Part shown: positions 9,308 to 10,053 of the stretch, one piece after another
Layout: each line of letters begins with the position of its first letter
Position numbering within the stretch: position 1 is the first letter of the stretch
Virus record (IMG/VR): IMGVR_UViG_3300032668_001907
From: a virus
Length of the DNA: 17,752 nt
Strand: one strand, 5' to 3'
The notes under the pieces: generated by a model
The model's database searches: none
The model's input: the letters and a program-made list of their open reading frames with translations, nothing else
Told to the model about the DNA's origin: nothing
Program-made: the position numbers and the translations under genes

Positions 9308-9430
9308 ATGATATCATACATCATTTTGAACAATGTGAACATCAAAAAAACGTTGGAATTTCGTCTTAAACGCTTGAAGAGCGATGGAAACGACATTGCA
9401 ATCACGCTGCCGAGGGTTCAACGTGTATGA
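9308..9430 (+). pseudogene. N-terminal remnant of a GIY-YIG homing endonuclease (40 aa, MISYIILNNVNIKKTLEFRLKRLKSDGNDIAITLPRVQRV). The YIG segment is missing and a 7-A homopolymer sits at 9344..9350.
   Basis: YIILNN resembles the GIY strand and LEFRLKRLK resembles the conserved ..ERRLKQHK helix, but about 8 residues carrying YIG are absent at the poly-A tract. It ends in an ATGA overlap with the next ORF in another frame. Confidence 0.5.
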
Positions 9431-10053
9431 TACATTGGACAATGCGCAAATACGGTAATGATGCTTTCGCAATTACGCAGTTGAAGACGTATGATACGTG
9501 GGAGGAAGCCTGCGAAGATGAAAAGTTGCTCATTAAAGAGCATAAGACGTTCATACGTGACTATCCTGACAATGGATACAACATGACTGAAGGAGGCGAT
9601 GGATGCCCGGGTTATCGATTCACTTCTGAGCAAAAGGCACGACAATCAGAAATCATGCGTAAACTTCGTCCCATGCTCGGACGAAAACACACCGAAGAAA
9701 CGAAACGCGCGATGAGCAATGCTCACAAAGGACATGTATACAGCGAAGATGAGTGCAAGAAACGAGCTGAACGTGCGCGTCAACAAGGATATCGTAACAA
9801 AGGACATCGTCACACCCATGAAGCGCGAAAATGTATGAGTGAAAAGCACAAGGTCGCTGTCGTTCAACTGACACTCGACAATGAGTTCATCGCAACACAT
9901 GCGTCAGCAACAGACGCGGGAAAGACGACGGGAATCAAGCGCCAGTACATCTTCAAGTGCTGCCGTGATAATACGTTGTCAAATGGCGGATTTAAGTGGC
10001 GTTACCTCGACCTAGAAAGGTCGAAAGTTCAATACAAGCGCAAAGACGTTTAA
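9427..10053 (+). CDS. C-terminal portion of a GIY-YIG homing endonuclease: the catalytic-domain tail (RKYGNDAFAI...GYNMTEGGDG), NUMOD3-like repeats and a C-terminal HTH (GIKRQYIFKCCRDN...GGFKWRY). It is probably non-functional as a nuclease without the N-terminal motifs.
   Basis: It matches the second half of the I-TevI catalytic domain (NKHGNVFECSILEE...GYNIADATFGD) and the I-TevI-like C-terminal DNA-binding module. A partial direct repeat (about 9383..9409 against about 9451..9480) straddles the frame break. Confidence 0.7.
   Translation: MIHWTMRKYGNDAFAITQLKTYDTWEEACEDEKLLIKEHKTFIRDYPDNGYNMTEGGDGCPGYRFTSEQKARQSEIMRKLRPMLGRKHTEETKRAMSNAHKGHVYSEDECKKRAERARQQGYRNKGHRHTHEARKCMSEKHKVAVVQLTLDNEFIATHASATDAGKTTGIKRQYIFKCCRDNTLSNGGFKWRYLDLERSKVQYKRKDV

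What the first reader, a model, noticed from the sequence alone, without database searches (positions are those of the whole stretch)
9308..9481. Decaying GIY-YIG gene: lost YIG motif at an A7 tract, frame break and partial internal duplication
The N-terminal 40-aa ORF keeps the GIY-like strand and the RLKRLK helix but lacks the YIG strand exactly where a 7-A homopolymer (9344..9350) occurs. The reading frame then switches by one (ATGA overlap at 9427..9430) into a 208-aa ORF carrying the rest of the catalytic domain, the NUMOD3 repeats and the HTH. The segment encoding DGNDIAITL (about 9383..9409) is partly repeated as YGNDAFAITQL (about 9451..9480). Three readings are possible: a pseudogenised HEG, a sequencing slip at the A7 run, or a split gene whose DNA-binding half is retained, as is known for HEG-derived regulators.
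Basis: seen in the sequence. Interest (0 to 1): 0.5.

Follow-up and report, generated by a model that had tools for sequence, protein, structure and literature searches.

The report
Recently broken phage homing endonuclease gene
This is an ordinary selfish "homing endonuclease" gene inserted into a large-phage genome and knocked out near its start by two small mutations, a lost base and a premature stop codon, so it is a known kind of decaying mobile gene.

Summary
Window 9308..10053 (+) is a free-standing GIY-YIG homing endonuclease gene: GIY-YIG domain, NUMOD3 repeats and a C-terminal NUMOD1-like helix-turn-helix. It sits in the spacer upstream of a vault-like gene of a huge-phage-like genome. 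Five relatives (vault protein 69-83% identical) have only 61-147 nt there.

Three details do not:
- **YIG strand.** It is not lost. It is encoded immediately after A7 in the -1 frame (N-V-G-I-S), followed by the true LEERWKRH helix. "RLKRLK" and "DGNDIAITL" are out-of-frame translations.
- **Missed lesion.** An in-frame TAA lies at 9367..9369.
- **Internal duplication.** It is at chance level.

Adding one base at A7 and reading through the TAA gives a 248-aa protein. It aligns without indels to intact homologues and I-TevI and passes the Pfam GIY-YIG cut-off. A8 or A6 alone gives only 20-22 aa.

Seven other assemblies carry both lesions without any indel, so a sequencing slip is excluded. All 76 informative IMG/VR homologue loci keep the N-terminus in frame, so the truncated form is not a recurrent class.

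Verdict: a recently pseudogenised, certainly nuclease-dead HEG. Retention of the DNA-binding half is possible but unsupported.

The parts
9263..10064 (+). Low-GC insertion (about 0.8 kb) carrying the HEG. It lies between the start of the minus-strand vault-like gene (6578..9262) and the stop of the minus-strand small ORF (10065..10313).
   Evidence: GC is 0.41-0.48 inside against 0.58-0.62 in the flanks. Five relatives (vault protein 69-83% identical) have only 61-147 nt at this site and no HEG. No intron or other Rfam family is present.
9308..9349 (+). Genuine first 14 codons of the HEG (MISYIILNNVNIKK). This is beta-strand 1 with the GIY-type motif (I-S-Y).
   Evidence: Aligns to the GIY strand of homologues and of I-TevI residues 6-17. 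An AGAGGA Shine-Dalgarno-like sequence lies 9-10 nt upstream.
9344..9350 (+). A7 tract, the site of lesion 1. One base is missing here. A8 would give N-V-G. A6-T-A would give the canonical Y-V-G.
   Evidence: The frame switches from frame 1 to frame 3 here. Adding one base restores the 11-residue Y-to-Y spacing seen in I-TevI and the homologues.
9349..9366 (+). The YIG strand, (N/Y)-V-G-I-S-S, encoded in frame 3 (the -1 frame relative to the start codon).
   Evidence: (the G of YIG is invariant in alignment A1).
9367..9369 (+). Lesion 2: a TAA nonsense codon in the catalytic frame, replacing a sense codon with no change in length.
   Evidence: The position aligns to ordinary residues in homologues with no gap. 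TAA is a used stop codon in this genome (7 of 44 called genes).
9370..9426 (+). Frame-3 coding remnant TLEERWKRHCNHAAEGSTC. It holds the catalytic Arg and His helix and has no start codon of its own.
   Evidence: R26 and H30 are invariant in alignment A1. It matches EKRWKRH of I-TevI. Frame 3 has no ATG, GTG or TTG between 9370 and 9426.
9308..9430 (+). Chimeric 40-aa ORF: 14 genuine codons followed by 26 out-of-frame codons. Its TGA overlaps the ATG at 9427 (ATGA).
   Evidence: No Pfam hit.
9427..10053 (+). 208-aa residual ORF. It holds the C-terminal about 57 aa of the GIY-YIG domain (equivalents of I-TevI E75 and N90 are present), the NUMOD3 repeats and the NUMOD1-like HTH.
   Evidence: phrog_314 homing endonuclease, 2e-29, starting at profile position 216 against 177 for the intact paralogue.
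9679..9732 (+). Best NUMOD3 repeat (ORF residues 85-102). A second repeat follows.
   Evidence: Pfam PF07460, 6.5e-6. Two stretches are detected when the linker is scanned alone.
9859..10011 (+). C-terminal NUMOD1 / I-HmuI-NUMOD-like helix-turn-helix module (ORF residues 145-195).
   Evidence: BLASTP 2e-10 to P0001 residues 254-304, where Pfam places PF22083 and PF07453. It is the only confidently modelled part of the structure (pLDDT 75-87, beta-beta-alpha-alpha-beta). The best PDB fold hit is I-HmuI 1u3e, which is weak (E 5.7e-3).
9293..9307 (+). Left copy of a 15-nt imperfect direct repeat (AGAGGATGTACAAGC) bracketing the HEG ORF.
   Evidence: Its significance is uncertain.
10070..10084 (+). 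Right copy of the 15-nt repeat (AGAGGATGTGCACGC), inside the 3' end of the neighbouring minus-strand ORF.

Best explanation
A free-standing I-TevI/Seg-type GIY-YIG homing endonuclease gene invaded the spacer upstream of the vault-like gene in this phage lineage. It has since been inactivated by two point lesions within its first 62 nt: loss of one base at or next to the A-run (9344..9350), and a nonsense TAA (9367..9369).

No product can contain the YIG strand or the catalytic Arg/His helix, so the nuclease is dead. The disrupted allele is fixed in every sampled copy of this phage. The rest of the gene is still an open 208-aa frame, most simply because inactivation is recent.

- **Shown:** the two lesions, their reproducibility, the domain content and the insertion polymorphism.
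- **Inferred:** the ancestral sequence at A7, the recency of inactivation and the lack of function.
For: - **Lesions.** The frame-3 reading after A7 gives NVGISS*TLEERWKRH.
- **Repair test.** The repaired 248-aa sequence aligns without indels to six homologues and the paralogue. G17, R26, H30, R47, K48, G50, E72, Y91 and N92 are invariant. It aligns to the I-TevI catalytic domain 1mk0/1ln0 over residues 4-95. It passes the Pfam GIY-YIG gathering score (35.5 against 22.6 bits), which neither ORF does alone.
- **Single-base fixes fail.** A8, A6 or A6-T-A alone give only 20-22 aa. Both repairs are needed for the 248-aa ORF.
- **Reproducibility.** The DNA is identical or 99.97% identical, with no gaps and with A7 plus TAA, in L082/L092, L088, L089, L090, L091 and L093.
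- **Insertion.** The HEG is absent from the syntenic site of five relatives, and its GC is low.
- **Truncated form is exceptional.** All 76 informative IMG/VR homologue loci have an in-frame N-terminal extension of about 34-51 aa with GIY..YIG.
- **Stop codon.** TAA is a normal stop here.
- **Precedent.** The degeneration phase of the HEG life cycle, and the defunct I-TevIII that persists in T4 (PMC2988022, PMC2790892).
Against: - Both lesions fall in the first 62 of 746 nt, and the remaining 627 nt carry no stop or frameshift. Every invariant residue of the remaining domain is intact.
- The 40-aa ORF ends in an ATGA overlap with the 208-aa ORF, and a GAGGG lies 10 nt upstream of that ATG. The DNA-binding half could therefore be translated.
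- These features are what a retained truncated protein would look like. They are also expected for a very recent knockout.
- There is no close homologue (best 38-40% identity). The ancestral state at A7 and at the TAA is therefore inferred, not observed.
Confidence: 0.78

Rival explanations
1. Retained DNA-binding half. The nuclease was inactivated but the 208-aa product is still made. It holds a partial GIY-YIG stub, NUMOD3 repeats and a NUMOD1-like HTH. Translation would start by termination-reinitiation at the ATGA overlap after the 40-aa leader ORF. The product would act as a site-specific DNA-binding protein, for example an I-TevI-like repressor or a protector of the former target site.
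For: - The ORF is open and the DNA-binding modules are intact.
- There is an ATGA overlap and an upstream GAGGG.
- Both lesions lie upstream of ATG 9427. A rough post-hoc probability for this, if lesions were uniform over the gene, is about 0.03.
- A 15-nt imperfect repeat brackets the ORF. It is reminiscent of the I-TevI operator and homing-site likeness (PMC2988022).
- I-TevI's DNA-binding domain is documented to work independently as an autorepressor.
Against: - The truncated form is not conserved anywhere. All 76 informative homologue loci are full length, and only near-identical copies of this gene exist.
- The product would carry a 57-aa fragment of a broken catalytic domain, modelled at low confidence (pLDDT 34-68).
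- The one SNP seen in the ORF is non-synonymous (P61A).
- An ATGA overlap with an open 26-codon out-of-frame stretch is not improbable by chance (about 0.08 by a rough estimate).
- No plus-strand promoter was detected upstream of 9308.
Confidence: 0.17
2. Sequencing or assembly artefact at the A7 homopolymer, with the real gene intact.
For: Homopolymers are classic sites of indel error. The window comes from an unpolished Logan assembly.
Against: - Correcting A7 to A8 or A6 gives only 20-22 aa because of the TAA substitution 17 nt downstream.
- Seven other assemblies show the same sequence with no gap: Logan and JGI pipelines, with accession series SRR112860xx, SRR11607848, SRR26084416, 3300032605 and 3300032676.
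- Caveat: some of these may derive from the same read sets. I could not check this.
Confidence: 0.02
3. Programmed recoding. A -1 ribosomal frameshift or transcriptional slippage at the A-run, plus stop-codon read-through or TAA reassignment, yields a low level of full-length active endonuclease.
For: - The A7 run lies exactly at the frame junction, and the shift needed is -1.
- Tight down-regulation of HEG expression is common in phages (PMC2988022).
Against: - The -1 frame closes after six codons at the TAA, so two independent recoding events within 25 nt would be needed.
- TAA terminates 7 of 44 called genes, including this one.
- The only tRNA in the window is Thr(TGT).
- The heptamer is C-AAA-AAA rather than the canonical A-AAA-AAG type.
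- None of the 76 informative homologue loci needs recoding.
Confidence: 0.03

Closest known systems
I-TevI (phage T4 td intron GIY-YIG homing endonuclease; PDB 1mk0/1ln0 catalytic domain)
   Same: - The repaired N-terminus aligns over the whole catalytic domain (query 4-95 against chain 6-93) with the same Y-to-Y spacing and the EKRWKRH helix.
- The modular layout is the same: catalytic domain, linker, then a C-terminal HTH-type DNA-binding domain.
- I-TevI's DNA-binding domain can act alone as a repressor (PMC2988022).
   Different: - The gene here is free-standing, with no intron.
- The linker is made of NUMOD3 repeats rather than a zinc finger.
- The match is weak (phmmer E 0.011).
- The gene is broken by a frameshift and a stop codon, so no active enzyme can be made.
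Free-standing Seg-type GIY-YIG endonucleases of T4-like phages (SegA-G; Pfam SegE_GIY-YIG, NUMOD1/NUMOD3 modules; PHROG 314)
   Same: - Intergenic, free-standing and of lower GC than the host.
- Present or absent between related phages.
- Strong hit to phrog_314.
- The homologues P0001, P0004 and P0005 carry SegE_GIY-YIG and NUMOD1.
- Antisense orientation relative to neighbours is also known for T4 segD.
   Different: - Only 28-40% identical to any known homologue.
- Disrupted at the 5' end.
- The host is an uncultured huge-phage-like genome.
Defunct I-TevIII of phage T4 (an HNH homing endonuclease with an inactivating internal deletion that persists in the population)
   Same: An inactivated HEG fixed in a phage population while an intact relative exists elsewhere. 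It exemplifies the degeneration phase of the HEG life cycle (PMC2790892; PMC2988022).
   Different: - A different nuclease family (HNH against GIY-YIG).
- A different lesion type (internal deletion against a 1-nt frameshift plus a nonsense codon).
- I-TevIII is intron-encoded and is mobilised in trans by mobE. No such helper is shown here.

Membership tests
GIY-YIG homing endonuclease (Pfam PF01541, I-TevI/Seg type) | beta-1 'GIY' motif near the N-terminus | tested here: met
   I-S-Y at residues 2-4 of the ORF starting at 9308. It aligns with GIY/xxY of the homologues and with I-TevI Y6.
GIY-YIG homing endonuclease (Pfam PF01541, I-TevI/Seg type) | beta-2 'YIG' motif 10-11 residues after GIY, in the same reading frame | tested here: not met
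   The motif is encoded (N-V-G, 9349..9357) at the right spacing, but in the -1 frame relative to the start codon. It is therefore present in the DNA and absent from any translatable product.
GIY-YIG homing endonuclease (Pfam PF01541, I-TevI/Seg type) | Catalytic Arg (I-TevI R27) and His in helix 1 | tested here: not met
   RWKRH is encoded at 9382..9396 in frame 3. It lies downstream of the in-frame TAA and upstream of the first start codon (ATG 9427), so it is not translatable.
GIY-YIG homing endonuclease (Pfam PF01541, I-TevI/Seg type) | Catalytic Glu (I-TevI E75) and Asn (N90) | tested here: met
GIY-YIG homing endonuclease (Pfam PF01541, I-TevI/Seg type) | Whole-domain profile match above the curated cut-off in a single ORF | tested here: not met
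The 208-aa ORF hits NUMOD3 only and the 40-aa ORF hits nothing. It is therefore filed as a pseudogene of the family, not a functional member.
Free-standing mobile HEG | Presence/absence polymorphism at a syntenic intergenic site; composition differing from the host; no intron or intein | tested here: met
   Absent in L083-L087, with conserved flanking synteny shown for L083. GC is 0.41-0.48 against 0.58-0.62. No intron family in Rfam.
Free-standing mobile HEG | Site-specific cleavage of the HEG-less allele and homing | not testable with these tools
   This needs an enzyme assay or phage crosses. No active enzyme is predicted from this allele.
HEG-derived DNA-binding regulator (I-TevI-like autorepressor / domesticated HEG) | Intact DNA-binding modules | tested here: met
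   NUMOD3. NUMOD1-like HTH, confidently modelled at pLDDT 75-87.
HEG-derived DNA-binding regulator (I-TevI-like autorepressor / domesticated HEG) | Truncated form conserved under selection across diverged lineages | tested here: not met
   All 76 informative IMG/VR homologue loci are full length. The only other copies of this gene are at least 99.97% identical, so there is no evolutionary depth to test.
HEG-derived DNA-binding regulator (I-TevI-like autorepressor / domesticated HEG) | Operator resembling the target site near its own promoter | tested here: inconclusive
   A 13/15 direct repeat brackets the ORF (9293..9307 and 10070..10084). Its significance is post hoc and binding is untested.
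Programmed -1 frameshift gene | Slippery site followed by a long open -1 frame | tested here: not met
   The -1 frame closes six codons after A7.

The most novel reading that the evidence does not exclude
The 1-nt deletion is not mere decay. It re-phases the short upstream ORF so that it skips the TAA and terminates exactly on the ATGA. That would couple translation to a nuclease-dead 208-aa NUMOD3/HTH protein. The phage would keep this protein as a site-specific DNA-binding factor, either a repressor of the divergent vault-gene promoter region or a shield of the former homing site against related endonucleases. The 15-nt repeats at 9293..9307 and 10070..10084 would be its binding sites.
Probability: 0.1. 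Interest if true: 0.45.

Novelty: new member of a known kind. Interest (0 to 1): 0.15.

Why it matters
It matters little beyond annotation. The 40-aa and 208-aa ORFs, and the 39- and 72-aa ORFs called in sister assemblies, should be merged and flagged as one GIY-YIG HEG pseudogene.

It is a clean natural example of the degeneration phase of the homing-endonuclease life cycle. The lesions are fixed across several metagenomes, in a huge-phage-like lineage that carries at least three GIY-YIG genes in 17.7 kb.

If the residual DNA-binding ORF proved to be expressed and functional, it would be an early snapshot of HEG domestication. Nothing here demonstrates that.

Tried and rejected
- **Close relatives of the HEG, to read the ancestral state at A7 and the TAA.** None found. 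GenBank phages by megablast gave no match. The word-indexed 5.8-billion-protein search gave at best 38% identity among full-domain hits. IMG/VR gave at best 40% over full-domain matches. JGI metagenome contigs gave nothing.
- **IMG/VR search with the vault-like protein.** Nothing found. Relatives came from the protein database instead.
- **Internal duplication.** Rejected by shuffle and resampling tests and by colinearity with homologues.
- **Single-base repair (A8, A6, A6-T-A).** Rejected as sufficient.
- **Stop-codon reassignment.** Rejected on stop usage and tRNA content.
- **Intron-encoded HEG.** Rejected.
- **Sigma-70 promoter and terminator scan.** Counts were at the shuffle expectation, with no plus-strand promoter upstream of 9308.
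- **Structure prediction of the 208-aa ORF with an 8-row alignment.** Mostly low confidence (mean pLDDT 58.5). The fold search gave only a weak I-HmuI hit (E 5.7e-3). I use it only as minor support for the C-terminal module.
- **Different gene calls for identical DNA in sister contigs (39 + 72 aa against 208 aa).** These are gene-caller differences, not sequence differences.

Full report
**What is in the sequence**

The region reads as the first stage described at the level of coordinates.
- An ATG at 9308 opens a 40-aa frame-1 ORF that ends at 9430 (MISYIILNNVNIKKTLEFRLKRLKSDGNDIAITLPRVQRV*).
- A run of seven A occupies 9344..9350.
- The ORF's TGA overlaps an ATG at 9427 (ATGA). That ATG opens a 208-aa ORF ending at 10053.
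- The 208-aa ORF hits Pfam NUMOD3 (6.5e-6) but not GIY-YIG.
- It hits PHROG 314 'homing endonuclease' at 2e-29, starting at profile position 216. The intact paralogue at 15337..16008 starts at position 177. About 40 residues of the domain are therefore missing from the ORF.

A three-frame translation shows that frame 3, directly after the A-run, reads N-V-G-I-S-S-stop-T-L-E-E-R-W-K-R-H-C-N-H-A-A-E-G-S-T-C-M-I-H-W-T-M-R-K-Y-G.
- This is the YIG strand followed by the canonical Arg/His helix of GIY-YIG enzymes. I-TevI reads YVGSAKDFEKRWKRH.
- So the YIG strand is not lost. It is displaced into the -1 frame.
- The 'RLKRLK helix' and 'DGNDIAITL' are wrong-frame translations of DNA that encodes LEERWKRHCNHAAEG.

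**Repair test**

- Inserting one base at the A-run and replacing the TAA by a sense codon gives one 248-aa ORF.
- It aligns to six database homologues and the window's paralogue without any indel in the catalytic domain. G17 (of YIG), R26, H30, R47, K48, G50, E72, Y91 and N92 are invariant.
- It matches the solved I-TevI catalytic domain over residues 4-95.
- It passes the Pfam GIY-YIG gathering score, 35.5 against 22.6 bits.
- A8, A6 or A6-T-A alone give only 20-22 aa.
- The residue aligned with the invariant Tyr of YIG is Asn under A8 and Tyr if a T was lost from AAAAAA-TAC. The latter is the more canonical ancestor. This is inference, because no close homologue exists.

**Internal duplication**

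- At the DNA level, 9383..9409 against 9451..9480 gives a lenient local score of 9. That score is reached by 2.3% of random segment pairs from the same gene.
- The extended alignment (score 13) is matched or beaten by 11% of adjacent 70-mers elsewhere in the gene.
- With stricter scoring only a 15-nt match survives.
- Both segments align to different, canonical parts of the GIY-YIG domain, and the repaired protein has no insertion relative to homologues.
- The resemblance is therefore chance.

**Artefact?**

- The window is part of a 36,275-nt Logan contig of SRR11286066.
- The same region occurs in seven other assemblies: SRR11286063, SRR11286067, SRR26084416, SRR11607848, JGI 3300032676 and JGI 3300032605. 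These are loci L082/L092, L088, L089, L090, L091 and L093.
- They are 99.97-100% identical over 2.3-6.8 kb, with no gap. All show CATCAAAAAAACGTTGGAATTTCGTCTTAAAC.
- The only difference inside the gene is one non-synonymous SNP (9607 C>G, P61A) in L090.
- Some of these assemblies may share read sets, which I could not check. Even so, a homopolymer miscall cannot create the TAA. The sequencing-slip reading is rejected.

**Context and mobility**

- The gene is on the plus strand inside an array of minus-strand genes. It lies between the start of an 894-aa major-vault-protein-like gene (6578..9262; Pfam MVP_shoulder, Vault) and the stop of a small ORF (10065..10313).
- The vault-like protein is about 40% identical to uncultured huge phages of 462-735 kb. 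It has 57-83% identical full-length homologues, several on contigs of 300-350 kb.
- In five relatives (L083-L087; vault protein 69-83% identical) the spacer upstream of the vault gene is only 61-147 nt, with no opposite-strand gene. Flanking small genes are syntenic in L083.
- GC falls to 0.41-0.48 across 9150..10050 against 0.58-0.62 in the flanks.
- Rfam finds no intron.
- This is a lineage-specific insertion of a free-standing HEG.

**Is the truncated product a retained protein?**

Points in favour:
- The ORF is open.
- All invariant residues of the remaining domain are intact.
- NUMOD3 repeats are present.
- The C-terminal 51 residues align at 2e-10 with the PF22083/PF07453 region of P0001. 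They are the only confidently modelled part of the structure (pLDDT 75-87). The best fold hit, I-HmuI, is weak.
- The ATGA overlap and an upstream GAGGG could support reinitiation.
- Both lesions lie upstream of that ATG.
- I-TevI's DNA-binding domain is known to work on its own as an autorepressor (PMC2988022).

Points against:
- Of the 80 IMG/VR homologue loci, four are uninformative. Three are cut by a contig end and L077 does not match the catalytic part.
- Each of the other 76 keeps an in-frame GIY..YIG N-terminal extension of about 34-51 aa, or starts its match further inside a full-length gene. The truncated form is therefore an exception, not a class.
- The only other copies of this gene are near-identical, so there is no evolutionary depth.
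- The product would drag along a 57-aa fragment of a broken domain, modelled at low confidence.
- No plus-strand promoter was detected upstream of 9308.
- The lesion clustering and the ATGA overlap have rough chance probabilities of a few percent each, estimated post hoc.

I rate this reading at about 0.17.

**Recoding**

A -1 shift at the A-run would hit the TAA six codons later. TAA ends 7 of 44 called genes, including this one. The only tRNA in the window is Thr(TGT). Two recoding events within 25 nt are not credible.

**Comparison with known systems**

- In architecture and sequence this is an I-TevI/Seg-type GIY-YIG homing endonuclease gene.
- As it stands it fails three defining features of a functional member: YIG in frame, a translatable catalytic Arg/His helix, and a single-ORF domain match. 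It is therefore a pseudogene of that family.
- Degenerate HEGs are the expected stage after fixation in the homing life cycle. T4 carries a well-studied defunct example, I-TevIII (PMC2988022, PMC2790892).

**Verdict**

This is a recently inactivated GIY-YIG HEG and a new member of a known kind. Interest is low. The most novel reading not excluded is a translationally coupled, nuclease-dead DNA-binding derivative, with a probability of about 0.1.

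Noticed in passing
window 9293..9307 and 10070..10084: An imperfect 15-nt direct repeat (AGAGGATGTACAAGC / AGAGGATGTGCACGC, 13/15) brackets the HEG ORF. These are the only two hits in the window at up to 2 mismatches. The HEG-less relative L083 has GAGGGATGTAAAGG right beside the stop of its small gene. It could be an insertion scar, or an operator and target-site likeness as in I-TevI. The significance is post hoc.
   Followed up: partly
window 15224..15297 (-) and 15337..16008 (+): A tRNA-Thr(TGT) gene (ARAGORN; Rfam 72.3 bits) lies 40 nt upstream of the intact GIY-YIG/NUMOD3 HEG, on the opposite strand. 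From memory, T4 segB also sits in a tRNA gene cluster. The stored gene call for this HEG (172 aa, starting at 15490) cuts off its GIY-YIG N-terminus.
   Followed up: partly
window 3553..4341 (-): A third GIY-YIG-type HEG-like gene (YYTYIDITSDDRPFYVGKG...) sits in another low-GC patch. It has no Pfam hit at E<=0.01 but matches phrog_314 homing endonuclease at 3.5e-11. That makes three HEGs in 17.7 kb.
   Followed up: partly
window 6578..9262 (-): An 894-aa major-vault-protein-like gene (MVP_shoulder 5e-25, Vault repeats). It has more than 2000 homologues in metagenomes, many on 300-350 kb contigs. It is about 40% identical to uncultured huge phages LR756500-503.
   Followed up: partly
window 9277..9304 (-): A sigma-70-like promoter match (TGTACA-16-AATAAT, next to a TATAAT) lies on the minus strand in the 45-nt gap between the HEG start and the vault-like gene start. 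It overlaps the HEG's Shine-Dalgarno region. If it drives the vault-like gene, it could select against clean deletion of the HEG's 5' end, as argued for the nrdB promoter inside mobE (PMC2790892).
   Followed up: no
window 634..1134 (+): A low-GC (0.42-0.44) 166-aa ORF rich in Gly, Ser and Asn, with no Pfam or PHROG hit. It may be another horizontally acquired gene.
   Followed up: no
L082/L088-L093 compared with L081: Identical DNA received different gene calls in different assemblies. It was called as 39-aa and 72-aa ORFs in the shorter contigs and as the 208-aa ORF in the 36-kb contig. The protein database therefore holds fragments of this pseudogene as separate 'proteins'.
   Followed up: yes
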